A stretch of 52,643 nt of DNA from a virus (taxonomy: Duplodnaviria > Caudoviricetes): the IMG/VR virus record IMGVR_UViG_3300012921_000070, positions 1 to 52,643 of that record; one strand, written 5' to 3'. Made by a program: the position numbers and the translations under genes. Each line of letters opens with the position of its first letter. Positions within the stretch are counted from its first letter, which is position 1. This document shows positions 6,088 to 46,567 of this stretch, one piece after another. The notes under the pieces were generated by a model that was not told the DNA's origin, did no database searches, and saw nothing but the letters and a program-made list of their open reading frames with translations.

Positions 6088-6354
6088 TCACCCCTCCCTG
6101 CCGGCGCGGCCGGTCCAGTCGAGACCGCATTCCGCGGTTCCCCTCGGAACAACGCCGCGTAAGGCCCCATGCAGGGCGCTGCGCTTGTTGATGCGGGCTG
6201 CGTGCAGGGCGCGTGTGCACCCGCTGTCCTTTGCCCTGCGCTCTGCCTCGGCGGCCCGCGCGTAGCCGGGGATGGCGCGCTCCAATGTCCGGTCGGGGTG
6301 GGTTTGACGCCACCATGCCAGCGCGGATCTGATCATGCGGTCGAGGCGCGTCAT
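6088..6354 (-). CDS. Hypothetical phage protein
   Basis: ATGA coupling to recT stop. Confidence 0.5.
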   Translation of the reverse strand: MTRLDRMIRSALAWWRQTHPDRTLERAIPGYARAAEAERRAKDSGCTRALHAARINKRSALHGALRGVVPRGTAECGLDWTGRAGREG

Positions 6355-7502
6355 TTGATCAGCCTCCCCAGATACTCGCGCTCGGTCTCCGCTGTAGACG
6401 GGTTGGCGACGATCCGGCCGGTTGCCTCAACGCATCTCGCGATGAAATCGAGATGATCCGGTAGCTCGGCGGAGAAAGCCTCCCGAACGCGCCGCACATG
6501 CTCCCGACGCGCGTCTGTGCTCAGGTCGCCCCGCACTGCTGTCTGGATAAACTTGTCGCGGCACTCTTCCATGAGATTGCGGGCAGCGCCGTCGAGTTCG
6601 GAGACCGGAGCGGGCTCGGACTGTTCCTGCCCTTCTGCGCCAGCCTCCACCGGCTCGCCAGCCGGGGTGGAAGCGACATCGGAGGACAGGGGGACATCTT
6701 GCTCCGGTTCGCTTCCGACCGTCTCGACAGAGGGAGAGGACGACTCTGTCGAGGCGGGTTCGTGATTGGTGGGTTCCTGGCCCGCTGACAGGCCTTGCGT
6801 CTCGCGGGCGACGAAGGAGGCGTCGAAGCCTTCGCGAGTGTCGGCGGCCTCGCCTGTGGCGGCGCGGGCCGATGCGAGACGGTCGGCAAGAGAAGGGCGC
6901 GGCTCATCATCGCTGTGGTCAATCGACCGCATTTCCTCGACGTCATAGATGCCGAGAAGGATTTCGGGGCAGTGCCGGCGCGCGAAGCCGCGCAGGGAAT
7001 AGTAGGCGAGCTGCTGATCCGGATCATTCTTCCACAGCGGGGAGTTCTTCGGCGTGATCGACCCGATACGCGGGCTGCGATAGTCCCGCACCGCGCCGTC
7101 CTTGAACTCGCCGGTGACGATGCAGATACGATCTGCACCGTCGCCCTCGTATGCGATCTGCGGCCGCTGCTTGAGCGGGGCGTGAGCATTCACAATACCG
7201 GCCAGCACCTGTGCCTCGTAGGCCAGATTGTCGTTCACGAAGTAGGATTTCCGTGCCAGGGCATACGGGCTGGTCTGGAAGCGGATCGCATCGTCGATGA
7301 TGCCGAGGCAGGCGCCGGGCTGGCCGCGCAGGTGCTTCGGCACGGCGGACCCGGATACGGCCATCATCTTCGCGTATTCCATGACCTCGCCGGCATTCTG
7401 GAAGGAGATGCCGCCAGTTCCGACCGCAATGGCCGACGAGACCTGAGTGTTGATCTTCTGCTCAATGGCCGTCATGCGATCGGCCGGGACCATCTGATTC
7501 AT
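6351..7502 (-). CDS. recT: RecT-family ssDNA annealing protein
   Basis: VPKHLRGQPGAC, SPYALARKSYFVN, YEAQ, NSPLWKNDPDQQLAY, ARRHCPEILLG; next to RecE-like gene. Confidence 0.85.
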   Translation of the reverse strand: MNQMVPADRMTAIEQKINTQVSSAIAVGTGGISFQNAGEVMEYAKMMAVSGSAVPKHLRGQPGACLGIIDDAIRFQTSPYALARKSYFVNDNLAYEAQVLAGIVNAHAPLKQRPQIAYEGDGADRICIVTGEFKDGAVRDYRSPRIGSITPKNSPLWKNDPDQQLAYYSLRGFARRHCPEILLGIYDVEEMRSIDHSDDEPRPSLADRLASARAATGEAADTREGFDASFVARETQGLSAGQEPTNHEPASTESSSPSVETVGSEPEQDVPLSSDVASTPAGEPVEAGAEGQEQSEPAPVSELDGAARNLMEECRDKFIQTAVRGDLSTDARREHVRRVREAFSAELPDHLDFIARCVEATGRIVANPSTAETEREYLGRLIK

Positions 7503-7503
7503 G

Positions 7504-8190
7504 TCAGTTCGCTCCCAGGATGTGGCGGGCGGTATGCTTCTCGTCGACGCCGAGATCGGACTTGAAGGCGATCCACTGCAGGTAATCGCGGGGAAGGTCG
7601 GCCCACTTCGCGCCTCGGTGTTTGCCGAAGGTGATGGTGCGAAGGACGACCGGTGCGGCAGTGAGCTCAACCAGCCTGTCAACGCTGGTCGCGAAGATCA
7701 TCCGCGAGAGCACGTAGGCGGTGACCAGTGTATCCGGGCCGGCGCGATGGGGTGGCATCGCTGCCACAGGATCGAGCCCATCGGCATCGACGTTGAGATA
7801 GTAGCGGAGCACCTGGTTCGAATGGCCGGGCGCGTCGGGGAAAATGTGCTTGGCGCATTGGAATGTGCAGATCCATCGATGCGATCCGCCGCCGAAGAAT
7901 GCGCGCTCGAATTTGGCATTATGTGCCGCGAACACGTCATCCGGCTCCATGCCAGCCATAAGCGTCTGGCAAGCTTCGGTTGGCGATATCGCGCCCGCAA
8001 CGTCGGCGTCGCTGATGTGGTGGACCGCTCGCGTCGCTGGCGGGATCGGATGGCCGGGGTTCACCAGCGCCGAGTGAGGTCCGTGGATTGACCAATCATC
8101 GTGGATATCGGTCCAGCCGATTTCGCAGATGCCCTTGACCTCATCTTCGGGCAGGCCAGTTGTTTCGAGGTCGATGACGCGGATTTTCAT
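7504..8190 (-). CDS. DEDDh 3'-5' exonuclease, ExoX-like
   Basis: IDLETTG, AHNAKFE, HRAGPD motifs; C-terminal FGKHRG...YLQW. Confidence 0.85.
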   Translation of the reverse strand: MKIRVIDLETTGLPEDEVKGICEIGWTDIHDDWSIHGPHSALVNPGHPIPPATRAVHHISDADVAGAISPTEACQTLMAGMEPDDVFAAHNAKFERAFFGGGSHRWICTFQCAKHIFPDAPGHSNQVLRYYLNVDADGLDPVAAMPPHRAGPDTLVTAYVLSRMIFATSVDRLVELTAAPVVLRTITFGKHRGAKWADLPRDYLQWIAFKSDLGVDEKHTARHILGAN

Positions 8191-9215
8191 GCTGCCTCCT
8201 GCTGCTCAAGGAATCGGTCGATCTGCTCCTTGGCCCATGGTTTCATCTGGATGTGTCTGGTGCCGTCGTTGAACGGCCTGGCGCCGGGCCACTCGCCGGC
8301 GTCGAGGCACTGGCGGATCGTGTCGAGGCACCAGCGGATGACGCGCTCGCCCCGGTCGATCTCGTGTTCCGAGACCTCGACGTGTGCCGTGTCCGGCACG
8401 TCGTCTTTCAGCACGTAGATCAGCGCGAAGGTCTCGAACGGGATGCCGAGACCGCGGCAAACCATCCGCGTCATCGCCGCCTGCAGGTAATAACCGGCGT
8501 CGAAAATCTGGCGCTCAAGGAAATCCTCGCCGAAGTCCGAGGCGGTCTTGAGATCGGCGAAAACTCCGTCGGCATGAGGGATCGCGTCTGGCCGCGCCTT
8601 GAGCCATATCCCGGTTGCCGGGTCCTTCCAGAACATCGATCGTTCGATGCGACCGTTCAGGATGCCGGACTGGATCAGCGGATGCCGGCTGGCATCGGCA
8701 TGGATACGCCGGATCATCTCCATGTCGTCGCTGGACAGGACGGTGCGGCCGTTGACGTGCCGCTCCAGCCATTCCTTGCAGACGTTGGATTTGGCTTTCC
8801 AGGGCTTGAATTCGCCCGTCTTGGCGTCAGGGTAGGAGTCCGGCCGGACGACGAATTTCTCTTCGAACACCTCATCGCCGAGGAGCCTGGCGTGCGCTGC
8901 CTTGCCGAAGTCGAGCGCCTTGGTGGTCTTGGGCTCGACATGGTCGGGATTGTGCTTCCACCGGCCCCAGAACGCTTTCGGGCTGCCGCCATGGGCCGGG
9001 ATGAGCCACTTCAACGCGCTCTTGGACACGGACGGCCCGTCGAGAAGATCGACCTTGCTGTGGTAGTCGTCTAGGCTGATGCCGCTCCACACACCAGGTT
9101 CCGAGATTGTCTCGCCAGTCCACCGGCGTTCCCCGCGCGCGCCGCGCACCACGCGCTCGGCAACGGCGCCGATCGGCTCGAACGCATCTCGGTCGATGTC
9201 CACATGTCGGGTCAT
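8187..9215 (-). CDS. RecE-like PD-(D/E)XK exonuclease (DUF3799)
   Basis: YH...SKSAL, FGKAAH, KARPD...ADLKT, GYYLQAA. Confidence 0.85.
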   Translation of the reverse strand: MTRHVDIDRDAFEPIGAVAERVVRGARGERRWTGETISEPGVWSGISLDDYHSKVDLLDGPSVSKSALKWLIPAHGGSPKAFWGRWKHNPDHVEPKTTKALDFGKAAHARLLGDEVFEEKFVVRPDSYPDAKTGEFKPWKAKSNVCKEWLERHVNGRTVLSSDDMEMIRRIHADASRHPLIQSGILNGRIERSMFWKDPATGIWLKARPDAIPHADGVFADLKTASDFGEDFLERQIFDAGYYLQAAMTRMVCRGLGIPFETFALIYVLKDDVPDTAHVEVSEHEIDRGERVIRWCLDTIRQCLDAGEWPGARPFNDGTRHIQMKPWAKEQIDRFLEQQEAA

Positions 9216-9397
9216 GCCGCGTTCCTCCGATCGAACAGCCGGTCGAGATCGGCCTTTGCCAGAGCGCGCCGCTCCGGGTCCTCGTCGTGCTTCAGCGCCT
9301 GTTCGATTTCGTGCAGCCGGTCGCGGATCGCTTTGCCTGCGAGTTCATCGCCGAGGGCCGCTGCGGCGCGGGCGATATGGGTGAGCTCGTCGATCAT
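9212..9397 (-). CDS. Hypothetical protein
   Basis: Coupled ATGA junctions on both sides. Confidence 0.55.
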   Translation of the reverse strand: MIDELTHIARAAAALGDELAGKAIRDRLHEIEQALKHDEDPERRALAKADLDRLFDRRNAA

Positions 9398-9666
9398 GAC
9401 GCGTCACTGCCTTTCTCGCGGGCGGCGATCATGGCGTCGGCGTATCGATATGCACCCCGCGCAACGCTAAGCAGAAAGGCTTCGTCAGATAGCGGGTCAT
9501 CGCCGCTATTTAGATGGTCCATAAGGTTCGCGTTGGCCGTTAAACCAGCGATTGCCTGCCCCGCGAGCCAGTCGCGCAGCGACATGCCGTTCGTCTGCAT
9601 ATCCGTGCAGTTCGGGTGAACTGCTGCAAACGGAAACGCTGGCCCACCGTCATTGATCGTGCTCAC
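9394..9666 (-). CDS. Hypothetical phage protein (GGPAFP...GMSLRDW family)
   Basis: DGGPAFP, GMSLRDWLAGQA, AYRYADAMIAAR; GTG start. Confidence 0.7.
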   Translation of the reverse strand: MSTINDGGPAFPFAAVHPNCTDMQTNGMSLRDWLAGQAIAGLTANANLMDHLNSGDDPLSDEAFLLSVARGAYRYADAMIAAREKGSDAS

Positions 9667-9788
9667 AGCGGTTCTCCCAAGATGATGCGCGCCCTGGCAA
9701 TCCAGCCGATGGTGAGCGCGATGTATGTGCTGGGATGAGCGGCAAGCCACTCAAAGGCGGCGTGGAGGAGAGCGTCGGGGGAGGTCAA
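9663..9788 (-). CDS. Small hydrophobic protein (41 aa), not in ORF track
   Basis: TTG start coupled to upstream stop; MTSPDALLHAAFEWLAAHPSTYIALTIGWIARARIILGEPL; fills operon gap exactly. Confidence 0.5.
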   Translation of the reverse strand: MTSPDALLHAAFEWLAAHPSTYIALTIGWIARARIILGEPL

Positions 9789-10006
9789 TTCCGCATCCTC
9801 CTGAGCTTGCGAGCAACGTCCTTCGCGTCAGTCGCGATTGCGTCTATTCCTCTCGACGCGCCGGCATCCGTGTCCTCAAGGAGAAGGATGAACTGGCCAA
9901 GGATGATGCCAAGGGCGATGCCAACGTCTTGGACAGGCTCCCGTTCTAGAAGCACACCGATCTTGCCGGCTATCTCTAGCGCGTGCGGGTTCTTGAAGCC
10001 CATCAC
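9785..10006 (-). CDS. Hypothetical protein
   Basis: Coupled operon gene with RBS. Confidence 0.55.
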   Translation of the reverse strand: MMGFKNPHALEIAGKIGVLLEREPVQDVGIALGIILGQFILLLEDTDAGASRGIDAIATDAKDVARKLRRMRN

Positions 10007-10374
10007 TCCGCCTCCTGCCCTGTGCTTCCGGCACTCGTCTTGTGAGAGGCGAGGGCGGCGCGGACCAGCTCAAGAGCCGGACCAGCGGGCGCTGTGTCGT
10101 ATGTCGCGTCGAGATCGCCGCGCGCTTCGACCTCGGCGGCAAGGACGATCTCGGCAGCCTCCAGCGCCTTCACGAGAGCGGGGAGGGAGTTCACGGCGCG
10201 ACGGTTCCAATTGGAGACGAAGTTCTCCTTGAACCCAAACTCCAGGTTCCCGCTCGCATTGCACTGCGTGCAGCAAATGAACGACGCGCCTTGATTTTCG
10301 CCCTCATAGAGATCCACGCGCTCAGCCTCTCCACCGCAGAACGGGCAGGGCTTCAATTCAGTCGTGTGCGTCAT
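10003..10374 (-). CDS. Lar-family restriction alleviation protein
   Basis: LKPCPFCGG...CTQC...WNRRA signature. Confidence 0.8.
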   Translation of the reverse strand: MTHTTELKPCPFCGGEAERVDLYEGENQGASFICCTQCNASGNLEFGFKENFVSNWNRRAVNSLPALVKALEAAEIVLAAEVEARGDLDATYDTAPAGPALELVRAALASHKTSAGSTGQEAE

Positions 10375-10435
10375 CTTCCTGTCCTCTCAACCACTTGAAG
10401 GAACGGCGGGGGAAACCGCCGCTCGATGAAGGGGT

Positions 10436-10624
10436 TCAGGCTGCGGGGTTGTAGTTTTCGGCCCACGAGTTCAGGAGGCTGGCCCACTCTTCGGGACGGT
10501 CGAGGTCGACAGCGCTATCGTTCCGCATGTCGGTAAGGCTCTGCGCTAGTTCCATCATCTCGCCGTAGGTCAGGTTGTTCAGCGCATCAGCGACAGCTGC
10601 CAGCGCGTTAATCTCGACCGTCAT
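10436..10624 (-). CDS. Hypothetical protein
   Basis: Starts MTVEINAL after GGAG. Confidence 0.55.
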   Translation of the reverse strand: MTVEINALAAVADALNNLTYGEMMELAQSLTDMRNDSAVDLDRPEEWASLLNSWAENYNPAA

Positions 10625-10664
10625 CGTTCTCTCCATTCCACAAAGCACCGGGCCAAGGTGCGGG

Positions 10665-11036
10665 TTAGGCCTGTGCTGTGGTTGATGCCGCGGCCGCGGC
10701 ATTGACGAGACCCGCCGATTCCAGCGCGATCTCGAAGGTTGCCTCTCCGTCATGCGCGCCGGTATATTCGAGCGAGGTGATCTGGAACGGCCCTTCCACC
10801 GTGCCGAAATCCGGCACCACGGCCTGCCAGTCGCGGATCGCGCCGGCAAAGAACGCACTGCGGATCGCCGCGTCCGACGCCTGGTCCTTGAAGATGCCAG
10901 ACCCAGTGATGCGGAGGTGTGGGTCGAACCATCGCCAGCGTATCAGGCGCAGGCCAGCCACGGTGCGGCCTTCCAGCTTAAGAAGCGCGTCGATCTTCTT
11001 CCCGTCTGCTATGGCCTCAGTGATTGAGTTGTGCAT
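10665..11036 (-). CDS. GTA/TP901-1-type major tail tube homolog with internal deletion
   Basis: LLKL..TVAGLR and GSGIFKDQASDAAIRSAFFAG..DWQ..PDFGTVEGPFQITSLEYTGAHDGEATFEIALESAG match the remembered alphaproteobacterial GTA tail tube; GGAG RBS. Confidence 0.8.
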   Translation of the reverse strand: MHNSITEAIADGKKIDALLKLEGRTVAGLRLIRWRWFDPHLRITGSGIFKDQASDAAIRSAFFAGAIRDWQAVVPDFGTVEGPFQITSLEYTGAHDGEATFEIALESAGLVNAAAAASTTAQA

Positions 11037-11191
11037 CACATCGTCTCCAGTCGTGCGCTGCACCCGCCAAGCGAGCGCCAGAACGCAATGTTTGAGAGGG
11101 CATCAGACCGGCGGGTGAACGGGCCGGACCAAAACAGCGGCGGTAGGACGCGGTCGCTCAGCGGGGTCACGATGACGCGGTAGAGGGTCAT
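11036..11191 (-). CDS. Small hypothetical protein
   Basis: MTLYRVIV..., coupled at both ends. Confidence 0.45.
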   Translation of the reverse strand: MTLYRVIVTPLSDRVLPPLFWSGPFTRRSDALSNIAFWRSLGGCSARLETM

Positions 11192-11376
11192 GGCGCGAAC
11201 TCTCCACATGCTGGCTCGGTAGCTCTCCGTGCTGGGAACCACTCGGCGGGCAAGTAGGCGATTGGGTGTTGGTTGTCGGACGTCGTAGCGACCACTTGCG
11301 GCGGATATCGGCGGCACTCGCCACCGTTCCAATGTCCGCAGTCCCCGCATAACTTCCCGGCTTTGAGGGGCGTCAT
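11188..11376 (-). CDS. Small Cys-rich (Zn-binding) protein
   Basis: CGDCGHW...ECRRYPP...CGEF. Confidence 0.65.
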   Translation of the reverse strand: MTPLKAGKLCGDCGHWNGGECRRYPPQVVATTSDNQHPIAYLPAEWFPARRATEPACGEFAP

Positions 11377-11591
11377 CGCGCGGCACTCCTCTTCCGGTTT
11401 TCGCGATTGATCTTGGCGGACCGTCGTGCGTCCCGAACCTGCTCGGTGGTGATCTCGTCCAACTGTTCGTCGGTGAGGAAGTAATCGAGGCCATTCCGGT
11501 AAGCCGCCTCGGTGATCGCCGTGATCAATGCGTTGCGACCGAACGACTTGATGAATGCGAGCTTCTTTTCTCGGGTAGCGGCGGTCATCAT
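11373..11591 (-). CDS. Hypothetical protein
   Basis: Coupled, GGAGG RBS. Confidence 0.55.
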   Translation of the reverse strand: MMTAATREKKLAFIKSFGRNALITAITEAAYRNGLDYFLTDEQLDEITTEQVRDARRSAKINRENRKRSAAR

Positions 11592-11806
11592 GCAGCCTCC
11601 TGCTTCTGACGCTCAGCCATCTCGGCAAGCGCTTTCGCCAGCGCTTCGTCGAAGGTGTCAGCGGAGCCCGACGCGCAAGTCTGGTATTCACCGTCCCAAT
11701 GGACGTAGACGCCGATGTAGGGGTGGCCCGGCGCTCCGAAGACGTTGACGCCGAGGCCGGTGAGGTTGTGATCCGCGACGATCTTCATCAGGGCGGCTTC
11801 CATCAC
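11588..11806 (-). CDS. Hypothetical protein
   Basis: Coupled, AAGGAGG RBS. Confidence 0.6.
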   Translation of the reverse strand: MMEAALMKIVADHNLTGLGVNVFGAPGHPYIGVYVHWDGEYQTCASGSADTFDEALAKALAEMAERQKQEAA

Positions 11807-12234
11807 GCCACCTCCTTCGCCAGACGCGTCCGGCGCGCCACGAGCTCGTCAAAGTCCCGCCATGTGCCGATCGACGAATAGGCCGCGATCAGATCCGCCA
11901 CGGCTTCGTCATTGAGGGGAACGAGCGCGTTGAGCCCGTATTCGCGGCCCGGCGCGCCAAGGGCGTATTCGGTGCGCAGGGCGCAGACGAGATCGCCGGT
12001 CGTGTTCGCCGTCTTGCACAGGCAACAGGCGCGGGCGCTGTGATACGTCGCGGTCGAGTAGAACGCCGGGCGCCCCGCCGCATATGCCGCGACCGCGCCG
12101 TCGATCATCACCGCATCCTCGATCTTGTCGCCGTGGATCGCGATCAGAACCGCGATCATCTGGCGCGCCGTCGAGGCGGGGTCTGCGCTGGTCCGGGACC
12201 GGGTCGACCGGAAGGTCTGTGCGAGGGCGGTCAT
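11803..12234 (-). CDS. Hypothetical protein
   Basis: Likely start MTALAQ just after upstream stop. Confidence 0.5.
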   Translation of the reverse strand: MTALAQTFRSTRSRTSADPASTARQMIAVLIAIHGDKIEDAVMIDGAVAAYAAGRPAFYSTATYHSARACCLCKTANTTGDLVCALRTEYALGAPGREYGLNALVPLNDEAVADLIAAYSSIGTWRDFDELVARRTRLAKEVA

Positions 12235-12235
12235 C

Positions 12236-12628
12236 TCAGCGGCCCTCAGCCTTGGCGAAGCCGCCATGATCGACAATAGCTTGGGCGACCACTCTCAGCG
12301 GCACGTAACCGTAGACAGTATCAGTCGGATTTGAATCCTCACCGTCGATGTAAGGCATGAAGCCCTCCACCTTCTCGGAGGGATAGCCGACCTCGACCAT
12401 GCTCCACGGTCCCGCGCTGTCGCGCGGCGAGCAGTAGTGGAAGGCGCTCGCCTGGACGGACATCTTGAAGCCGTCCGCGCAGACGATCTTGGGGACATGG
12501 TTGAGGTGCCTGTTGAGCGCCATTGCTTCGCCGTGGAAGCGCGCCGTCACCTTGTCTGTCTCAGCATTGATGCGCTTGCTGGCATCAAGCCGGCTCTGCA
12601 GCTCGCTCATCACCTCGTTCAGCGTCAT
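12236..12628 (-). CDS. First PL gene; widespread phage protein of unknown function
   Basis: AGGAGAG RBS; CADGFKMSVQAS..HYCSPR..VEVGYPS..DTVYGYVP..HGG. Confidence 0.7.
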   Translation of the reverse strand: MTLNEVMSELQSRLDASKRINAETDKVTARFHGEAMALNRHLNHVPKIVCADGFKMSVQASAFHYCSPRDSAGPWSMVEVGYPSEKVEGFMPYIDGEDSNPTDTVYGYVPLRVVAQAIVDHGGFAKAEGR

Positions 12629-12666
12629 CGCGTCTCTCCTCATCAGCCAGGAAGGCTATGGGGAGG

Positions 12667-12717
12667 ATATTGCCACGTGGCAAACACATTGACAATAGGC
12701 AAAATGCCACTTGGCAA
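12667..12717 (-). promoter_or_regulatory. PL promoter and OL operators
   Basis: Operators TTGCCACGTGGCAA (12670-83), TTGACAATAGGCAA (12689-702), ATGCCACTTGGCAA (12704-17); minus-strand TTGTCA-N17-CAATAT. Confidence 0.85.
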
Positions 12718-12734
12718 AAAATCTTTGCCGTGCG

Positions 12735-12770
12735 AAAAGAAAAGCCCCGGCGGGATGATCCGACCGGGGC
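12735..12770 (-). terminator. Intrinsic terminator insulating PL
   Basis: GCCCCGG/CCGGGGC stem followed by TTTTCTTTT on the minus strand. Confidence 0.7.
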
Positions 12771-12809
12771 GCGCAGGCGTTCGTAAGACACTCGGTCCCT
12801 AGCAAATCC

Positions 12810-13200
12810 CAATGGATTTCGCAACCGAAACGATCGCCGCGCGGCGCAGAAAGTCCAGATTTCTCGCGTCTGACCGGAGGTTCCCGGCGAGAAAGAAGGA
12901 CCGGAGCGCTAAAGCGGCGGTCTTCACGGGCGTTGCCCCGCCGCGCCGATCATCCGGCGCATGAACTCCCAAGCGGTGATCGACTGCCAGGCTCAGTCGG
13001 ATGGTCGGGACGGGTAGGCGCCGTCCGAATGCTTTGGATGCGAGCTGAGGTGTAAACTGCGCGACATACCCTGAAGGTTCAGGCGGACTGGTCCACCGAT
13101 GAAGACGGACGGCGCAGGATATCCCGACTTGATAGCATCCCGGCCCGCGGCATAGGCGGCAGCCGAGGCGACGTTGCCCTTCAGGGTGAACGTCTTGATT
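12810..13200. ncRNA. Candidate structured ncRNA/leader upstream of HNH gene
   Basis: No credible ORF over ~400 nt; dense run of stems (see findings). Confidence 0.45.
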
Positions 13201-13228
13201 GGGCGAAGTGTGTCCAGAGGAGACCGGT

Positions 13229-13684
13229 ATGCCGATTGCGGCGGAAAAAATGAAGCTCTATCCCGGCGGGTCGATCAAGTCGGCGGAGTGGCAAGCGATC
13301 CGTGAGCGCATCCGTGCCCGCGCCGGCAATCGGTGCGAGAAATGCGGTGTCGAGAACCACGTCCTCGGCGGCCGGCTGCATAGCGGGAAGTTCTTGAAAG
13401 CCCAACCAAAGGGCGACAACGGCCTACGCCTGGTATGGCCGAATCCGGGCGAGGAGTGGTGGTGCGGCGATGTCGAGCCGATCAAGCTCCGCATCATAAA
13501 GATCGTCTGCACCGTGGCACACTTCGACAACCACCTGACCGATCACAGCGACGACAATCTGCGCTTCTGGTGTCAGCAGTGCCACCTGCGGCACGACGCG
13601 CGACAGCATGCAGAAAGCGCCAGGGTAACGCGCCGACGCAAGGCGCCGCAGATCGATATCGAGGACTGGTTGAGCAGTGCCTAA
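13229..13684 (+). CDS. Zn-finger HNH-like endonuclease
   Basis: AGAGGAG RBS; CEKC...TVAHFD...NLRFWCQQCH. Confidence 0.75.
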   Translation: MPIAAEKMKLYPGGSIKSAEWQAIRERIRARAGNRCEKCGVENHVLGGRLHSGKFLKAQPKGDNGLRLVWPNPGEEWWCGDVEPIKLRIIKIVCTVAHFDNHLTDHSDDNLRFWCQQCHLRHDARQHAESARVTRRRKAPQIDIEDWLSSA

Positions 13685-13713: not shown

Positions 13714-14235
13714 TTATGCTGCCGCAGGTGCGTCCTGTATGAGATGTAGCAAGTTCAACGCCCGGAGCCGGACCTCCATGGCCAACTTCGAAACGTCGAA
13801 CTTCTCCGCGAGGCCGGCCAGCGTAGTATTGCCAGAGGCGATCTCTTGCTGGATGGGCACCTTCGGCATCAGCAAACTTGCAGCAAAGCCGTTTGCTTGC
13901 ATTTCGTGCTGATAGGTGAGAGGCGCACTGACATTGCGGTTCGCGGCCTCATCGAATAATCGATCCAAGTGCTTGTGCTTCTTAAGCAAATCGCGGTGGT
14001 ATAGGAAGTGACCGAGCTCGTGCGCGGCCGTGAAGCGTCGGCGCTGGGGGCCTTCGTTGCTGTTTACGGCTATGGTGCAGGTCCATCCGTCGTATTCGAT
14101 GTAACCGGATTCTCCGGGCGGAAGATCACGCTCGACATAGGTCAGCCCAATATCGCGAATGATACCCTTCACATCGACCGGCGGGCGAAGCGCATATGCG
14201 CGAACGATCTCATTCTCGTTCTCGTATTTGATCAT
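13714..14235 (-). CDS. ImmA/IrrE family Zn metallopeptidase
   Basis: RRRFTAAHELGH, EMQANGFAASLLMP, C-terminal HTH. Confidence 0.9.
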   Translation of the reverse strand: MIKYENENEIVRAYALRPPVDVKGIIRDIGLTYVERDLPPGESGYIEYDGWTCTIAVNSNEGPQRRRFTAAHELGHFLYHRDLLKKHKHLDRLFDEAANRNVSAPLTYQHEMQANGFAASLLMPKVPIQQEIASGNTTLAGLAEKFDVSKLAMEVRLRALNLLHLIQDAPAAA

Positions 14236-14636
14236 TGCTTCCCTCCGTCGAGGCTATTAACCGCTTCTTGCGCCGTGGTCGAGGAAACCTGCTCCTGTCC
14301 TAGAATGTCCTTTAGGTCGCGCACCTCTGCGAACTCGCGTTTGACCAACGCTGGCAATTCCGAGTTTACCACATTCTCAGCGGTAGTGCGCGCGGTTTCC
14401 TCCGACACATACCGAAGCGACTGATAGCCCCAGATCGCGAGTAAAGCGATGAAGATCCCGAGAGCAGTGAGCAACACGCTGAGCGCGGCAAGGACTATCG
14501 TTACGAGTTCGACGGAAGTGAACCCGCCTACGACGAAGTAGCCTCGACCAAGAAACAGATAGAGGAGGCAGGCCGTGAGACCAATGTTGATCACAAACAT
14601 GCCGGCGGAGATAATCTTGCGCGCGCGCCAAATCAT
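14232..14636 (-). CDS. Two-TM membrane protein
   Basis: Two hydrophobic segments plus soluble tail; ATGA-coupled to immA. Confidence 0.7.
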   Translation of the reverse strand: MIWRARKIISAGMFVINIGLTACLLYLFLGRGYFVVGGFTSVELVTIVLAALSVLLTALGIFIALLAIWGYQSLRYVSEETARTTAENVVNSELPALVKREFAEVRDLKDILGQEQVSSTTAQEAVNSLDGGKQ

Positions 14637-14815
14637 GTTTCGCTTTCCGTACTGCCGCGCTCTTTCTGCTGAAGGCTGATCTCGAGCATCCCCATTCCTA
14701 CCAGCGCATCCCGCAATGCACGGATCGCTGCTTCCTCCTCTGAGCATCGGAGCTCGTGCGCCAGGCGGCGGAGCGCGATAGACGTGGCGGTGTCGAGGGT
14801 GAGGGTGAGCTTCAT
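14633..14815 (-). CDS. Small ribbon-helix-helix-like protein
   Basis: MKLTLTLD...LRRLA...EEAAIRALRDAL. Confidence 0.5.
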   Translation of the reverse strand: MKLTLTLDTATSIALRRLAHELRCSEEEAAIRALRDALVGMGMLEISLQQKERGSTESET

Positions 14816-14822
14816 GGCGAGG

Positions 14823-15230
14823 CTACTCGAAAGTCTCTTTGGTCCCGTCCTGATAGAGCACGGCTTTCGTGCACCCCCTCGTTGTGATGTTCTTCGGAGC
14901 AAGGGTGACCAGGCGGTCGAACCCGATCATCTTGTTCGTCTCGGTGGCCTCTTTGCCTGGGTCGAGGCGAAGATCCCTGTCGATCGGAATGCCGCCGAGA
15001 CTGCCGCCCAAAACATCGTCGAACCATATCGTGGCGTCGATCATCTCGATCGGCTTCGATGTCTTGTTGCGAACAGTGGTCGTAACCGATGTTCCTCCAG
15101 GGGCCGACTTTTCAGCGCTCCAGGTCACCACTTCGATGATGTTGGGCGACCCGCGATTGCACTGCGCTGCCGCCACCTCCGGCATGAGAGCAACCAAGCA
15201 CGCCGCGATCACCCTCGCCACTGAAACCAT
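14823..15230 (-). CDS. Secreted/periplasmic beta-rich protein
   Basis: Signal peptide ending AAA-Q; two Cys in mature part; downstream of cI. Confidence 0.65.
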   Translation of the reverse strand: MVSVARVIAACLVALMPEVAAAQCNRGSPNIIEVVTWSAEKSAPGGTSVTTTVRNKTSKPIEMIDATIWFDDVLGGSLGGIPIDRDLRLDPGKEATETNKMIGFDRLVTLAPKNITTRGCTKAVLYQDGTKETFE

Positions 15231-15910
15231 GCGACCACCCTCCCATAGACCCGAACATCCTCGCGGCGCAGTTCATCGGCGCCGTAGCGTTCATTGTCCG
15301 ACATCACGATGATCTTCTCCGACCGGGGCACCATTTTCAGGCGCTTGATCATGAGGCCATCGCCGTAGTCGAGCGCGTAGATATCCTCCGGTGCCGGCAC
15401 GATGTGCGACGTGTCGATGAAAACGAACGAGCCGTTCGGTAGCGTCGGTTCCATGCTGTCGCCGATCACAGGCAAGGCGAACACCTTGCCCATGCGCTTC
15501 CATCCGGCCTTTACAGCATCCGGGAAGCTCCAGAACCCATCGGAATAGTCGGAGTATACCTCTCCTGCGTCGTTCGTGAGCACACTCAGCGCGCCGCCCG
15601 GTCCCATGCCCGCGTGAATGGTGAAGTTCGGAACATCGCCCTTCCGGCCAGGCTCATTCGGGAAGACGGCGAGCTCTTTCGCCCGTTCCAGGTCGGCGAC
15701 GTCAAAGTCGTCGCTCAGTTCCTCCGCATCGGTCTCAAGCGCACGAGCGATTCGGATGATCTGCTCGAGGCTGATGCCGCGCAAACCGGCTTCCATGCGG
15801 GAAAGGTGGCTGGTCGAAATGCCCGTGCTCTCCGCCAGTTGCTCTAGCGTCAGTTCTTTTTTCTTGCGGACTTCCCGGATGCGATTTGCCATGCCGAGCT
15901 TATTCGCCAT
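15209..15910 (-). CDS. cI: CI repressor (HTH_XRE + S24 peptidase)
   Basis: N-terminal HTH, AG cleavage site (IHAGMG), GDSMEP and IKRL catalytic motifs; start 15910 or 15892. Confidence 0.92.
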   Translation of the reverse strand: MANKLGMANRIREVRKKKELTLEQLAESTGISTSHLSRMEAGLRGISLEQIIRIARALETDAEELSDDFDVADLERAKELAVFPNEPGRKGDVPNFTIHAGMGPGGALSVLTNDAGEVYSDYSDGFWSFPDAVKAGWKRMGKVFALPVIGDSMEPTLPNGSFVFIDTSHIVPAPEDIYALDYGDGLMIKRLKMVPRSEKIIVMSDNERYGADELRREDVRVYGRVVAWFQWRG

Positions 15911-15978
15911 CCGGCAAAATTTCGCTACCGCCAACTGGCAAATTGCCAATTGACAAGTATGTTGCCACGTGGCAAGTT
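15904..15978 (+). promoter_or_regulatory. OR operators and PR promoter
   Basis: TCGCCATCCGGCAA (15904-17), CCGCCAACTGGCAA (15928-41), TTGCCAATTGACAA (15943-56), TTGCCACGTGGCAA (15962-75); TTGACA-N17-CAAGTT. Confidence 0.85.
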
Positions 15979-15984
15979 CGCGCC

Positions 15985-16200
15985 ATGACGCTGCGCGAAT
16001 ATCTCCAGAGCCGAGACATGAAGCCATCCGCATTCGCCGCGGAGGTTGGTGTCCCGCCGTCGACGATCACACGCATCCTCAACGGGGAGAGGTCTCCCGG
16101 CCTCGAGCTGATGCGCGCCATCCGAGACAACACGAACGGCGAAGTGCAACCGAACGACTGGCTCGCCGCTCCCGCCCCCACCACAGGAGAGGCGGCATGA
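15985..16200 (+). CDS. cro: Cro-like HTH repressor
   Basis: MTLREYL...FAAEVGVPPSTITRILNGERSP...TNGEVQPNDW; divergent from cI. Confidence 0.85.
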   Translation: MTLREYLQSRDMKPSAFAAEVGVPPSTITRILNGERSPGLELMRAIRDNTNGEVQPNDWLAAPAPTTGEAA

Positions 16201-16863: not shown

Positions 16864-18210
16864 ATGTCTCTCGCGCACCAGATCGTGCCGGCAGGCGAGG
16901 GGAAGGGCGACACGTCGCTGCTCCGATATGATGCGGCATGTCGCGCGCTCGCCGAAGCCAAGTCGGTCGATGAGGTAAAGGACGTTCGCGACCGCGCCGA
17001 GGCGATGCGTGCCTATGCGCGCCAGGCCAAGAACAAGCAACTCGAGGTCGACGCAGCCGAAATCCGAATCCGTGCAGAGCGGCGGCTTGGCGAGATGATC
17101 GCTGGTCAGAAGGCGACCGTCGGCCTGAACGAAGGTGGCCGACCGAAAACCGGGTTGCAGAAAAACCCAGTTTCCAAGCCGACACTCGCCGAAGCAGGCA
17201 TCGACAAGAACCTTGCCGACCGCGCCCGCAAGATGGCGGCAGTGCCGGCGGACCAGTTCGAAGAGATGGTGGGCGACTGGCGCGTCCGCGTGGCCGACGA
17301 GAACGAGCGCGTCACGACGAACCTTTTGAAGGCTGGCGAAAAGAAGCTCGCCCGTGACGAGAAGGAAGCCGCGCTCGCCGAGAAGATGCGCGCCGCTGCC
17401 GAAAGCCTGGGGCAGGGCAGTTTCGGCGTGATCTATGCCGATCCGCCGTGGCGTTTCGAGCCATATAGCCGCGACACCGGCATGGACCGCGCTGCCGACA
17501 ATCACTACCCGACCATGGACGTCGAAGCGATCTGTCGCATGGAAGTCCCGGCCGCTGACGACTGTGCGTTGTTCCTCTGGGCGACCGCTCCGATGCTGCC
17601 GGAGGCTCTGGCGGTGATGTTCGCCTGGGGCTTCGAATACAAGTCCCAGATCATCTGGGCCAAGGATCGGATCGGCACCGGATACTGGGCGAGGAACAAG
17701 CACGAGATACTGTTGATCGGGACCAAGGGCAGCATTCCAGCCCCGGCGCCTGGAACACAACCGGAGAGCGTCATCGTCGCTCCCGTCGGCGTGCACAGCG
17801 CAAAGCCTGAACTGTTCGCGGAGATGATCGAGCGTCTGTTCCCGAACCTTCCGAAGATTGAGATGTTCGCGCGGACCAGCCGGCCGGGATGGCAAGGCTG
17901 GGGCGCGGAAGCAGATACCGAGGCACCTACGGCGCGCCCGGAAGCGACGGTAAATCCCGTTGCCCATGTAAGAACGCCCGCGCCCGCAAAGTCCTCGTCT
18001 CAGGGGCCATCCGAAGCGGAAGGCTCCGGGGCGGCGCATGGCCCACAAGGGTCGCCCGTCGCCCCACCCATTCAGCAGTTGAGCCCGGCCGATCGCGTCC
18101 GGCTCCTGCGCCCGCACTGCGCTCATCCAGATGATCTCTCGCAATGCGCTGGCGTGGGCCGGAAGCACTGCCACGCCTGTGCCGCAACTATTGAGCCGGA
18201 GGCCGCATGA
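16864..18210 (+). CDS. MT-A70 family adenine methyltransferase with N-terminal helical domain
   Basis: IYADPPW, LFLWAT, WGFEYK, HSAKP, IEMFAR. Confidence 0.9.
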   Translation: MSLAHQIVPAGEGKGDTSLLRYDAACRALAEAKSVDEVKDVRDRAEAMRAYARQAKNKQLEVDAAEIRIRAERRLGEMIAGQKATVGLNEGGRPKTGLQKNPVSKPTLAEAGIDKNLADRARKMAAVPADQFEEMVGDWRVRVADENERVTTNLLKAGEKKLARDEKEAALAEKMRAAAESLGQGSFGVIYADPPWRFEPYSRDTGMDRAADNHYPTMDVEAICRMEVPAADDCALFLWATAPMLPEALAVMFAWGFEYKSQIIWAKDRIGTGYWARNKHEILLIGTKGSIPAPAPGTQPESVIVAPVGVHSAKPELFAEMIERLFPNLPKIEMFARTSRPGWQGWGAEADTEAPTARPEATVNPVAHVRTPAPAKSSSQGPSEAEGSGAAHGPQGSPVAPPIQQLSPADRVRLLRPHCAHPDDLSQCAGVGRKHCHACAATIEPEAA

Positions 18211-27642: not shown

Positions 27643-28006
<364 letters not shown>

Positions 28007-38092: not shown

Positions 38093-38512
38093 ATGCCCAG
38101 CGTTGAAACGGCCATGCGCGCTGCCGCGGCGACCCGTGTGGACACGCTGCCGATGAAGGCGACGTTCCCGATCGTCTGGACCGACGAGGCGTCCTACAAC
38201 CCGTCGGCGACCACGCCCTACATTCGAGCGACGTGGGTGCCGAACCAGACGAGCCGGCGCTTCGTTGGGTCTGCTGACCCCCATCAGAGGACTGCGATCC
38301 TCCAACTGGACGTAATGGCAAAGAAGACATGGTCCGGTCTGCAGGCCAGCGAGATCGCAGGGCAGGTTGCCGCGCATTTCCCCGCTGATCACGCCATGTA
38401 TTCCGGTGATGTGAAGTGCAGGGTTACCGCCGCTCCGAACGTCACGGGGCCGATCGCCGGGACCGTGTTCATGCAGGTGCCGGTCACCATCCAGATCGAG
38501 GCCTTCGCCTAA
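38093..38512 (+). CDS. Tail terminator (DUF4128-like)
   Basis: PYIR, ILQLDV, AGQVAAHFP; precedes tail tube. Confidence 0.75.
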   Translation: MPSVETAMRAAAATRVDTLPMKATFPIVWTDEASYNPSATTPYIRATWVPNQTSRRFVGSADPHQRTAILQLDVMAKKTWSGLQASEIAGQVAAHFPADHAMYSGDVKCRVTAAPNVTGPIAGTVFMQVPVTIQIEAFA

Positions 38513-38585: not shown

Positions 38586-39095
38586 ATGGCCATTCACAAG
38601 ACGGGTGGAAGCAAGTTCTACATCTCCCCGACCAGCGTCGATGTCGACGCGATCGAGGCGATGAATGACGCGGATATGCTCGAGTTCTACGAGGACATCG
38701 CCGATTGGGAGGAGGTCGAAGAGATCGAGAACCTGGGCACCGTCGGCGATACGGCGGAGGAGATTTCATTCACTACCATCGGGCGCAATCGCGTCCGCAA
38801 GCTGAAGGGCCCGCGCGACGCCGGCACACAGGAGGTTACGGTCGGCCGTGACCCTCTGGATGATGGGCAAGAAGCGCTCATCGCGGCCGAAGGCAACGAC
38901 TTCAATTATCCGTTCAAGATCGAACTGAACGACGCCCGTTCGGCGAATTATACGAAGTCGGTGCTGTATTACGCCGGTCTTGTCATGTCCAAGCCGACGA
39001 ACATGGGCACGAACCCCACGGTGGTGACTCGCGCGTTCAACATCGGCATCAACACCTCGATCGTCGAAGTCAAGTCCGCGGTCATCACCCCGTAG
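38586..39095 (+). CDS. Major tail tube protein
   Basis: GTVGD, RVRKLKGPRDAG, DPLDDGQ; AAGGAG RBS. Confidence 0.82.
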   Translation: MAIHKTGGSKFYISPTSVDVDAIEAMNDADMLEFYEDIADWEEVEEIENLGTVGDTAEEISFTTIGRNRVRKLKGPRDAGTQEVTVGRDPLDDGQEALIAAEGNDFNYPFKIELNDARSANYTKSVLYYAGLVMSKPTNMGTNPTVVTRAFNIGINTSIVEVKSAVITP

Positions 39096-46500: not shown

Positions 46501-46567
46501 AGCAACACGCCCGGCGCGACCGCGACGGCGATCTACACCTGATCAATCCAAGCAATTCGAGGTTGCC

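What the first reader, a model, noticed from the sequence alone, without database searches (positions are those of the whole stretch)
10665..11036. Loop-deleted GTA tail tube homolog in the early operon: candidate tail-assembly poison against GTA or rival phages
Seen: an intact gene with an RBS in the PL operon, ~28 kb from this phage's own, unrelated tail tube gene (38586). Its C-terminal ~70 aa closely match, from memory, the alphaproteobacterial gene transfer agent major tail protein (TP901-1 family), and the N-terminal LLKL..TVAGLR is retained. The ~25 aa normally between them (remembered as NAETVDxTDxxSAGRWRELLxGxGVQR) are replaced by a short turn (WRWFDPHL). Established: that segment corresponds to the extended loop that siphoviral tube proteins such as lambda gpV need for ring stacking. 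Inference: a captured host gene trimmed into a dominant-negative cap that blocks GTA or competing-phage tail assembly during induction.
Basis: partly seen in the sequence, partly recalled or inferred. Interest (0 to 1): 0.9.

Follow-up and report, generated by a model that had tools for sequence, protein, structure and literature searches.

The report
Loop-less GTA tail-tube paralogue in prophage
A prophage carries, among its early genes, a small intact copy of the host-type gene-transfer-agent tail-tube protein that has lost the loop tube rings use to stack, which makes it a plausible but untested blocker of rival tail assembly.

Summary
Window 10665-11036 (-) is an intact 123-aa gene in a leftward early operon, with a Lar-like gene and RecE/RecT-like genes downstream. 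Residues 43-111 match the TP901-1/GTA tube family (PF06199, 1.9e-20). The N-terminal part is homologous too (hhalign 96%), but it lacks about 23 aa of the beta2-beta3 "long loop", which the literature names as the main ring-to-ring contact. It also lacks 6-7 aa of the beta1-beta2 loop and has gained an N-terminal helix. AlphaFold2 gives a compact tube core (pLDDT 93), and its best PDB match is the RcGTA tube.

New here: the gene is a mosaic. Codons 45-111 are 94% nucleotide-identical to Mesorhizobium GTA g9 genes. The homologous 5' part is only 51% identical (Fisher p 1e-17). Three other sequences share the same N-module and the same 14-aa spacer, each with a different g9-like C-half. The form is very rare.

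My best reading (about 0.4) is a ring-competent, stacking-incompetent subunit that interferes with GTA-type tail assembly. "A trimmed host gene" is only partly right, and no function was tested.

The parts
10665..11036 (-). Intact 123-aa gene (stop at 10665-10667) for a loop-less paralogue of the GTA/TP901-1-type tail tube protein.
   Evidence: ORF and translation; PF06199 1.9e-20; TIGR02126; AF2 pLDDT 93.3; Foldseek best hits are the RcGTA tube, 6tba/6toa.
10704..10904 (-). Codons 45-111: central helix plus beta4-beta6 core. This patch is near-identical to Mesorhizobium GTA g9 and looks like a recent conversion or recombination patch.
   Evidence: blastn gives one hit, 94.0% over 201 nt to L083 8007-8207. 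Mismatches are 16-19 of 207 nt to L083/L003/L002. The C-half is 99% aa identical to full-length P0278.
10905..11036 (-). Codons 1-44: the diverged 'N-module'. It holds a new N-terminal helix, beta1, a trimmed beta1-beta2 loop, and beta2 joined to beta3 by a tight turn.
   Evidence: hhalign against full-length proteins, 96.3%. Only 51% nt identity to g9 over 35 aligned codons, against 94% in the C part, Fisher p 1e-17. Shared with P0002, P0003 and P0121.
10911..10946 (-). Codons 31-42 (LIRWRWFDPHLR): the short hairpin that replaces the ~35-aa beta2-beta3 long loop of full-length tube proteins.
   Evidence: Alignments A1/A3. AF2 shows E24-37, a turn at 38-39 and E40-49, against E21-40, loop 41-52 and E53-70 in full-length P0278.
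11007..11033 (-). Codons 2-10: an N-terminal alpha-helix that is absent from full-length tube proteins and conserved among the short forms.
   Evidence: AF2 H2-10 with block pLDDT 94; alignment A4.
10668..10703 (-). Codons 112-123 (NAAAAASTTAQA): a unique low-complexity C-terminal tail that lies outside the g9 homology.
   Evidence: Alignment A1; DNA alignment; last pLDDT block 49.
11039..11191 (-). Upstream 51-aa ORF of unknown function. Its TGA overlaps the ATG of the tube-like gene (TGATG), which suggests translational coupling.
   Evidence: Sequence; no Pfam, PHROG or PADLOC hit; the atlas search gave nothing above chance.
11045..11048 (-). GGAG Shine-Dalgarno-like motif 8 nt upstream of the ATG.
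   Evidence: Read.
10003..10374 (-). Lar-like restriction-alleviation gene, two genes downstream in the same leftward gene string.
   Evidence: PF14354 2.6e-8; phrog_599.
6351..9215 (-). Recombination genes of the same leftward string: RecE-like exonuclease (8187-9215), DnaQ-like exonuclease (7504-8190) and a RecT-family protein (6351-7682).
15209..16033 (-). CI-like repressor (HTH plus S24 peptidase) that marks the immunity region.
38586..39095 (+). The prophage's own major tail (tube) protein. It belongs to a different sequence family and sits in a complete tail module (terminator 38093-38512, tape measure 40080-42221).
   Evidence: phrog_158 4.5e-20, phrog_179, phrog_8892; no Pfam hit; BLASTP against P0001 E 0.13.

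Best explanation
The gene encodes a remodelled paralogue of the GTA-type (TP901-1 family) tail tube protein. It keeps the beta-sandwich and helix core, which builds the hexameric ring. Both elements that the literature names as ring-to-ring connectors have changed: the beta2-beta3 long loop is cut to a tight turn, and the N-terminus is replaced by a new helix. The ring-forming C-terminal two-thirds is almost a copy of a Mesorhizobium GTA g9 gene. The inferred mechanism is as follows. The gene is expressed with the early leftward operon after induction or infection. Its product joins, or sequesters, GTA-type tube subunits through the matched lateral interface. The resulting rings cannot stack or extend, so GTA-type tails are not completed. 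The target would be either the resident GTA or co-resident or superinfecting phages with GTA-like tail modules. What is shown here: the homology, the positions of the deletions, the fold, the mosaic structure, the operon context, and the existence of three relatives with the same design. What is inferred: expression timing, binding, interference and the target.
For: (1) The family match covers only profile positions 62-130. hhalign shows that the N part is homologous, with gaps of 7, 18 and 5 aa.
(2) AF2 of the short form gives a compact core at pLDDT 93.3 with a tight beta2-beta3 turn. The full-length relative has a 20+12+18-residue hairpin with low pLDDT (63-73). The best PDB matches are the RcGTA tube, E 1.6e-7.
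(3) Literature: the long loop mediates disc-disc and tube-Dit contacts in RcGTA (PMC7296036 passages). The beta2-beta3 loop is the main inter-ring contact, and its deletion abolishes tube growth in T5 and SPP1 and yields hexamer rings in YSD1 (PMC8718954 passages).
(4) The C part is 94% nt identical to GTA g9 and the 5' part 51%. The C-half is 99% aa identical to a full-length g9. The donor-type gene lies in a canonical GTA cluster.
(5) The gene sits in the early/accessory string next to a Lar-like gene and the recombination genes, not in the tail module, which is complete and unrelated. No terminator-like site lies on either strand, and no promoter-like site on the minus strand, in 9300-13300.
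(6) P0002, P0003 and P0121 share the N-module (66, 54 and 48% identity over residues 1-50) and the same 14-aa spacer. Their N-modules are more diverged than full-length N-halves at equal C-half identity in 5 of 6 pairs.
(7) Precedents exist for the kind of function. Prophage- and PICI-encoded Tai proteins block tail assembly (PMC11364771, abstract and section 11). PLE11 Rta restricts tail assembly (PMC12987554 passages). SaPIbov5 Ccm is a capsid-protein homologue that redirects assembly (abstract start in the listing).
Against: No functional, binding or expression data were obtained.

The deleted loop points toward the baseplate and is the arm by which an incoming subunit docks on the previous disc (PMC7296036 passages). 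A loop-less subunit may therefore simply fail to join rather than poison assembly. I saw no report of trans-dominance for the loop deletions.

The form is very rare. Four sequences share the N-module (window, P0002, P0003, P0121) in a 5.8-billion-cluster collection, and one representative cluster matches end to end among 1.84 billion. There were 0 hits in IMG/VR, 0 in JGI metagenome contigs, 0 short forms among 158 g9 genes extracted from 160 loci, and 0 of 401 genomes of the donor's family.

The genomic context of the relatives is unknown, so they could be ordinary tail-module genes elsewhere. Tube homologues with intermediate loop lengths exist (spacers of 27-28 aa in P0148 and P0172), so a short loop need not mean a non-structural role.

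The near-identity to g9 could be a neutral by-product of homology-driven gene conversion. The low dN/dS of the C part (0.04-0.09 to five g9 genes) may only reflect the donor's history.

Blocking GTA tails would not stop GTA-driven lysis or DNA packaging, so the benefit of targeting the host's own GTA is unclear.

Monophyly of the four C-halves is not rejected (p-AU 0.083).
Confidence: 0.4

Rival explanations
1. It is a non-adaptive mosaic. A diverged tube-like remnant carried in the variable early region was partly overwritten by gene conversion from the resident GTA g9 gene. It is translated but has no selected function.
For: There is a sharp 51% to 94% nt identity step. The form is extremely rare. 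In run X5 a 1612-nt contig matches 11100-11590 and then runs on unlike the window toward the gene, which suggests that this site is variable. The low-complexity C-terminal tail falls outside the homology.
Against: The ORF is intact, has an SD motif and has a start that overlaps the upstream stop. Four sequences at 43-66% N-module identity all keep open frames, the same 14-aa spacer and the N-helix. AF2 is more confident for the short form (93.3) than for the full-length protein (80.7).
Confidence: 0.2
2. It is a decoy or anti-defence protein. As a tube-fold mimic, it would occupy a host sensor that recognises tail tube proteins, or another GTA-linked host factor, early in infection.
For: The gene lies two genes from a Lar-like anti-restriction gene in the early string. 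Tube proteins are known defence triggers: DSR2-tail tube protein complexes (8k98, 8wfn) appear among the weaker fold matches, at E 0.011-0.015.
Against: The phage's own tube belongs to another sequence family, so a g9-like decoy would not obviously mimic it. There is no PADLOC hit for the gene or for eight neighbours; the ninth, 13199-13684, matched ZorE-like HNH models. The tight match to the host g9 is not explained by this reading.
Confidence: 0.12
3. It is a free hexameric ring with a new job, for example an Hcp-like scaffold or chaperone used by the phage early in its cycle. The tube ancestry would be incidental.
For: Loop deletion in YSD1 gives free hexamer rings (PMC8718954 passage). 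Hcp proteins are the next-best fold matches after the GTA tube (E 5e-4 to 1e-3). The conserved new N-helix could be a new binding element.
Against: No partner or cargo is evident. This does not explain why the C-half equals the local g9 at the nucleotide level. Oligomer prediction could not be run.
Confidence: 0.1
4. It is a working alternative tube or adaptor subunit built into a hybrid or GTA-derived tail, that is, piracy rather than poisoning.
For: PLE satellites build chimeric tails from their own and phage parts (PMC12987554 passages). Terminator, stopper and distal tail proteins share the tube fold (PMC7296036 passage).
Against: The prophage has a complete tail module of its own. The gene is in the early string, not with the late genes. 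No other GTA-derived gene is in the record: 1 of 14 L083 GTA ORFs hits the window.
Confidence: 0.05

Closest known systems
RcGTA tail tube protein g9 (Rcc01691; PDB 6TBA/6TE9/6TOA) and its Mesorhizobium orthologues (TP901-1 family, PF06199/TIGR02126)
   Same: Same fold and family. Residues 45-111 are 97-99% aa identical and 94% nt identical to Mesorhizobium g9. The best structural matches are the RcGTA tube.
   Different: It lacks about 23 aa of the beta2-beta3 long loop and 6-7 aa of the beta1-beta2 loop, and it has an added N-terminal helix. It is not in a GTA or tail gene cluster. Its 5' third is only 51% nt identical.
Engineered beta2-beta3 loop deletions of siphophage tube proteins (T5 pb6, SPP1 gp17.1, YSD1)
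   Same: The same structural element is removed. These experiments show loss of tube growth, or free hexamer rings (PMC8718954 passages).
   Different: Those are laboratory constructs. This is a natural gene, kept in a prophage and in at least three related sequences. I did not see trans-dominance reported for the constructs.
Tai tail-assembly-inhibition proteins of prophages, PICIs and P4-like satellites; PLE11 Rta
   Same: These are proteins encoded by mobile elements that stop a rival's tail from assembling (PMC11364771 abstract and section 11; PMC12987554 passages).
   Different: Escape mutations point to the tail-tip protein J as the Tai target, and Rta restricts the tape measure protein. 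In what I read they are not described as homologues of the tube protein. Homology to them was not tested here.
SaPIbov5 Ccm
   Same: A mobile element carries a homologue of the target's structural protein and uses it to derail assembly (abstract start of PMC8569155 in the listing).
   Different: Ccm is a capsid-protein homologue that is built into small capsids. Here the homologue is of a tail tube, and its incorporation is only inferred.

Membership tests
TP901-1 family major tail (tube) protein, PF06199 / TIGR02126 | Profile HMM score above the curated cut-off | tested here: met
   PF06199 73.7 bits against 23.8; TIGR02126 58.5 against 37.
TP901-1 family major tail (tube) protein, PF06199 / TIGR02126 | Full-length match that includes the beta2-beta3 long loop | tested here: not met
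   Only profile positions 62-130 of 132 match. The loop is cut by 18 + 5 aa. The spacer is 14 aa against 37 aa in full-length proteins.
TP901-1 family major tail (tube) protein, PF06199 / TIGR02126 | Tube-protein fold (beta-sandwich flanked by one helix) | tested here: met
   AF2 pLDDT 93.3. Foldseek 6tba E 1.6e-7, TM 0.62, followed by Hcp and phage tubes.
TP901-1 family major tail (tube) protein, PF06199 / TIGR02126 | Gene placed in the tail module, between the terminator/completion gene and the chaperone/tape measure genes | tested here: not met
   It lies in the leftward early string with Lar and RecE/RecT. The tail module is at 37.4-50 kb and has its own tube gene.
RcGTA-like gene transfer agent cluster gene g9 | Part of a head-tail cluster: terminase, portal, protease, capsid ... 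g9, g10, g12-g15 | tested here: not met
   Of 14 GTA ORFs of L083, only g9 hits the window. L083 itself has the full cluster.
Tai / Rta-type tail assembly inhibitors | Sequence homology to Tai or Rta | not tested
   No Tai or Rta sequence was compared. PADLOC-DB 2023 gave no hit, but I do not know whether it holds Tai models.
Tai / Rta-type tail assembly inhibitors | Produces tailless particles of the target | not testable with these tools
   This needs expression and electron microscopy.
Structural-homologue interference proteins (Ccm-like) | Homologous to the target's structural protein but encoded by another element | tested here: met
   It is homologous to GTA g9 and encoded in a prophage with an unrelated tail. 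That the host itself carries the matching GTA is inferred, because only the provirus record is held.
Structural-homologue interference proteins (Ccm-like) | Co-assembles with the target protein | not testable with these tools

The most novel reading that the evidence does not exclude
A temperate phage carries a 'target-tracking' poison subunit. An old, fast-evolving N-module has all ring-stacking connectors removed and a blocking helix added. It is fused to a ring-forming half that is repeatedly refreshed by gene conversion from whichever GTA-type tube gene is resident. The inhibitor therefore always fits the local GTA or GTA-tailed rival prophage. This would be an arms race between a phage and a domesticated virus, fought with a structural paralogue.
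Probability: 0.25. Interest if true: 0.85.

Novelty: new variant of a known kind. Interest (0 to 1): 0.62.

Why it matters
Tail-assembly interference by mobile elements has only recently been recognised (Tai, Rta), and the known inhibitors are not described as copies of the tube protein. A natural tube paralogue that has lost its stacking loop would be a new way to do this. It would also be the first suggested case of a phage gene aimed at a gene transfer agent or at GTA-tailed rivals. In addition it would be a natural counterpart of the engineered loop deletions used to study tube polymerisation. The mosaic structure adds an evolutionary point that can be tested: an inhibitor kept compatible with its target by gene conversion. 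If the gene proves to have no function, the finding is still a clear example of exchange between a prophage and a resident GTA cluster.

Tried and rejected
I then tried the following:
- The search for related loci with the N-module alignment in viral contigs and JGI metagenome contigs. Patterns matched 380 and 247 stretches, but none was confirmed.
- The search for related loci with A2 in genome contigs. The 80 loci kept were all full-length (lengths).
- A degenerate DNA pattern for TVAGxR-14 aa-GxGxFK. It was validated on the window (1 hit, 0 expected). It gave 0 in viral contigs, 0 in metagenome contigs and 0 of 401 genomes of G001's family.
- A word-based search of residues 1-44, which found only the query.
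- The same search with the N-module alignment and longer lengths, which found only the four known sequences.
So conservation 'in other prophages' and dN/dS among short forms could not be assessed.

Monophyly test. The AU test does not reject the four C-halves forming one clade (p 0.083), so 'repeated conversion' remains suggestive. A 171-row quick tree is poorly resolved (67 columns). The placements of P0196, P0245 and P0149 are on long branches and should not be trusted.

Expression. No RNA holder is listed. Run X6 is labelled RNA only as a guess. It has a 239-nt contig over 10864-11092 with 4 differences. I do not use this as evidence.

Coverage. Parts of the stretch without cover in X5, X6 and X8 are not interpreted.

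Other steps:
- The atlas search of the upstream 51-aa ORF gave only sub-threshold unnamed clusters. The search for the downstream 62-aa ORF was not possible.
- PADLOC gave nothing for the gene or for eight of the nine neighbours scanned with it; 13199-13684 matched ZorE-like HNH models.
- The promoter/terminator scan found no terminator-like site and one promoter-like site, on the plus strand. This is weak because the consensus is sigma-70 of enterics.
- A weak Pfam hit to LPD7 (E 0.0054, below cut-off) was rejected as noise.
- I considered the GTG start at 11063 (132 aa) and rejected it, because the relatives start at the ATG position.
- The residue numbers of the RcGTA 'long loop' and 'short loop' are in supplementary tables of PMC7296036, which I could not see. 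I therefore equate the deleted segment with the long loop from the review's 'loop beta2-beta3' and from the two AF2 models. Equating the trimmed beta1-beta2 loop with their 'short loop' is my inference.
Full report
WHAT IS THERE. The window is a 52.6-kb IMG/VR provirus record that CheckV rates complete. On the minus strand, 10665-11036 is an open frame of 123 codons. A GGAG lies 8 nt before the ATG. The ATG shares its A with the TGA of an upstream 51-aa ORF (TGATG), an arrangement typical of translational coupling.

The gene sits in a string of leftward genes that runs from about 12643 down to about 4500. The string holds several small ORFs without family matches, then this gene, a 62-aa ORF, a Lar-like restriction-alleviation gene (10003-10374) and a phrog_2201 gene. 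After these come a RecE-like exonuclease (8187-9215), a DnaQ-like exonuclease, a RecT-family protein (6351-7682) and an HNH protein. A CI-like HTH/S24 repressor (15209-16033) and an M78 peptidase gene lie to the right, and replication and late genes follow on the plus strand.

The tail module is complete: adaptor, closure, completion, terminator 38093-38512, tube 38586-39095 (phrog_158), chaperone, and tape measure 40080-42221. Its tube protein has no Pfam hit and no meaningful similarity to the 123-aa protein (E 0.13). PF06199 hits the record once only. The simple scan found no terminator-like site on either strand and no promoter-like site on the minus strand in 9300-13300. That is weak evidence for one transcription unit.

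Residues 43-111 match PF06199 positions 62-130 of 132 (1.9e-20), TIGR02126 (7.8e-16) and phrog_1407. A search of 5.8 billion clusters gave 5763 relatives, nearly all 135-138 aa and many named 'TP901-1 family major tail protein' of Mesorhizobium. One of these, P0005, matches the solved RcGTA tube protein Rcc01691 end to end (E 3.8e-50). The genomic locus of a close relative (L083, a Mesorhizobium MAG) is a canonical RcGTA-like cluster. It holds terminase, portal, S78 protease, HK97 capsid, tail completion, g9, GTA-gp10, DUF2460, hub, and GTA_TIM/Rcc01698_C; 10 of 10 ORFs scanned matched.

The N-terminal part, which Pfam does not align, is nevertheless homologous. A profile of four short N-modules aligns to a profile of 46 full-length proteins with 96.3% probability (E 1.6e-9). 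The alignment has gaps of 7 aa (beta1-beta2 loop) and of 18 and 5 aa (between beta2 and beta3). Counted directly, the spacer between TVAGxR and GxGxFK is 14 aa here and 37 aa in full-length proteins.

STRUCTURE. AlphaFold2 with a 13-row alignment gives pLDDT 93.3. The model has helix 2-10, strands 16-21, 24-37 and 40-49 (with a two-residue turn between the last two), helix 52-64, and strands 67-74, 78-95 and 98-107. The full-length relative P0278 gives strands 8-14, 21-40 and 53-70 with a 12-residue loop between the last two. Its pLDDT is only 63-73 over residues 31-60. So the short protein is the tube core with the distal half of the beta2-beta3 hairpin removed. It also has a shorter beta1-beta2 loop and an extra N-terminal helix. 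Foldseek against the PDB ranks the RcGTA tube first (6tba 1.6e-7, 6toa 4.8e-7), followed by Hcp proteins and phage tubes.

WHAT THE DELETED PART DOES. [quoted passage not shown] The N-terminus and shorter loops face the terminator (PMC7296036; passages found; residue numbers are in supplements that I could not open). The review of major tail proteins uses RcGTA as the minimal tube. [quoted passage not shown] It also states that deleting this loop abolishes tube formation in T5 and tube growth in SPP1, that two point mutations in it do the same in lambda, and that in YSD1 the deletion gives hexameric rings (PMC8718954, passages). Hence both elements named as ring-to-ring connectors are altered in this protein, while the strands and helix that form the ring are kept.

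THE GENE IS A MOSAIC. blastn of the L083 GTA cluster against the window gives a single hit: 94.0% over 201 nt, window 10704-10904, which is codons 45-111. Per-codon comparison gives 16-19 mismatches in 207 nt to L083, L003 and L002. I then took the 35 codons of the N part that hhalign pairs with g9. Of these, 15 encode the same residue, but nucleotide identity is 51% against 94% in the C part (Fisher p 1e-17). Genuine g9 genes do not behave like this. In random full-length pairs, N-half identity tracks C-half identity: for C-half identity of 0.80-0.90, N-half identity averages 0.85 with a 5th percentile of 0.72.

At the protein level the C-half is 99% identical to the full-length P0278, but only 75-85% identical to the other short forms. 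NG86 distances of the C part to five g9 genes are dN 0.013-0.034, dS 0.24-0.51 and omega 0.04-0.09. These fall in the same range as g9 against g9. The C part is therefore indistinguishable from a Mesorhizobium g9 allele, and these numbers say nothing certain about selection inside the phage. No other GTA gene is present in the record (1 of 14 ORFs hits).

RELATIVES OF THE SHORT FORM. P0002 (117 aa), P0003 (116 aa) and P0121 (116 aa) share the N-terminal helix, KKID-LLKL, TVAG(L/I)R, the RW motif and the same 14-aa spacer. Their N-modules are 66, 54 and 48% identical to the window's over residues 1-50. All are singletons from Logan assemblies on contigs of 1.3-3.4 kb.

A profile of three short forms was searched against 1.84 billion representatives. 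It found one cluster that matches end to end (P0121, 5.6e-45), and the remaining listed hits match only the C part or longer versions. More distant loop-poor proteins exist: P0196 (124 aa, with an N-helix and a 10-aa spacer), P0245 (106 aa, 14-aa spacer) and P0149 (127 aa). Intermediates also exist (P0148 and P0172, 27-28-aa spacers).

On a tree of the C-half, P0121 is sister to the full-length P0111 (100/99). P0001 sits with P0278 and L083, and P0002 and P0003 sit near P0274 and L003. None of 200 bootstrap trees unites the four, but the AU test does not reject one clade (p 0.083). In 5 of 6 short-form pairs, the N-module is more diverged than the 5th percentile of full-length N-halves at the same C-half identity. 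Two readings fit. Either the C-halves are refreshed from local g9 genes, or the N-module evolves fast.

RARITY AND OCCURRENCE. I found no short form in any of these searches:
- IMG/VR;
- JGI metagenome contigs;
- the 158 g9 genes I could extract from 160 loci, which were 132-164 aa long;
- 401 genomes of the donor genome's family.
The DNA pattern used for and 86 hits the window once, with 0 expected by chance.

Sampled 31-mers of 10436-11806 are held almost completely by four biocrust-metagenome runs; one may be the source and the other three are from other studies. In run X2, identical contigs cover 9000-10776 and 10869-13000, and two identical unitigs tile the gap. The breaks fall inside the g9-like C part, where other g9-like contigs of the same sample overlap; one of these is a 17.7-kb contig with 11 differences in 76 nt. 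So the short gene and ordinary g9 genes occur in the same sample, though not necessarily in the same cell. In a wastewater run (X5), a 1.6-kb contig matches 11100-11590 at about 96% and then continues unlike the window toward the gene. This hints that the site is a variable cassette.

HOW IT MOST LIKELY WORKS. My preferred reading (about 0.4) is an interfering subunit. Its C-half carries strands that in the tube pair with a neighbour's beta2 to close the ring (review). Because this half is a near-copy of a g9, a resident g9 subunit should bind it as it binds itself. That step is inferred.

A ring that contains such subunits has fewer or no docking arms and an altered proximal face because of the new helix, so it should not stack. 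Alternatively, free mixed rings could sequester g9. The deleted loop points toward the baseplate and is the incoming subunit's own docking arm. Poisoning would therefore have to work through mixed rings or sequestration.

The target is open. Blocking the tails of the host's own GTA would not prevent GTA-driven lysis or DNA packaging, so I see little benefit there. Rival prophages or superinfecting phages with GTA-like tail modules exist in Mesorhizobium: vB_MseS-P1 has 12 RcGTA homologues (PMC11409702 passages). These make more sense as targets, by analogy with the Tai systems of prophages and PICIs (PMC11364771), PLE11 Rta (PMC12987554) and the capsid homologue Ccm of SaPIbov5 (listing abstract).

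Rival readings are a neutral conversion mosaic (0.2), a tube-fold decoy for a host sensor (0.12), a ring with a new job (0.1) and a hybrid-tail component (0.05).

COMPARISON AND NOVELTY. By score and fold, the protein belongs to the PF06199/TIGR02126 family. It fails two features of a working tube protein: the full-length match including the long loop, and a position in the tail module. I therefore call it a paralogue, not a major tail protein. Two literature searches returned nothing that describes a natural loop-deleted tube paralogue outside a tail module, or a phage gene aimed at GTA tails. These searches cover only the held library. I rate the finding as a new variant of a known kind (tail-assembly interference, or structural-homologue interference). 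Function is untested and the family is very small.

LIMITS. Only the provirus is held, so the host's GTA is inferred. The relatives' DNA and context, complex prediction and earlier notes were unavailable. Supplementary tables that define the RcGTA loops were closed.

Noticed in passing
window 10003-10374 (-): A Lar-like restriction-alleviation gene (PF14354, phrog_599) lies two genes downstream of the tube-like gene. This marks the stretch as a host-takeover or anti-defence region.
   Followed up: partly
window 11100 (boundary), run X5: A 1612-nt wastewater-metagenome contig matches 11100-11590 (18 differences and a 3-nt indel), then continues unlike the window toward the tube-like gene. The cassette boundary would fall inside the upstream 51-aa ORF.
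   Followed up: no
window 10776-10869, run X2: In an independent biocrust metagenome the prophage contigs break exactly inside the g9-like part of the gene. Several divergent g9-like contigs overlap there. The repeat is therefore shared between the prophage and GTA clusters in the same sample.
   Followed up: partly
window 13199-13684 (+): A 161-aa protein on the opposite strand, between the M78 peptidase gene and the leftward operon, matches ZorE-like HNH endonuclease models of PADLOC (3.8e-7). It has no Pfam hit at 1e-3.
   Followed up: no
window 13714-16033 (-): The immunity region holds both an IrrE/ImmA-like M78 peptidase (13714-14235) and a CI-like HTH/S24 repressor (15209-16033), with two unknown genes between them. 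These are two different derepression logics in one prophage.
   Followed up: no
window 16864-18210 (+): An MT-A70 family methyltransferase (448 aa) lies in the rightward early region.
   Followed up: no
window 27930-28006 (+): A tRNA-Met (CAT) gene lies inside the prophage, between the replication and packaging genes.
   Followed up: no
window 46430-49201 (+): A 923-aa tail fibre-like protein carries collagen triple-helix repeats and a BppL_N lower-baseplate motif.
   Followed up: no
proteins P0148, P0172, P0196, P0245, P0149: The TP901-1/GTA tube family contains natural variants with beta2-beta3 spacers of 10, 14, 27 and 28 aa besides the usual 37. All are from short Logan contigs of unknown context. 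They scatter over the C-half tree on long branches.
   Followed up: partly
L002-L081: Many IMG/VR 'viral' contigs of 13-17 kb that hold full-length g9 have the size expected of GTA clusters filed as proviruses. I did not check their gene content.
   Followed up: no
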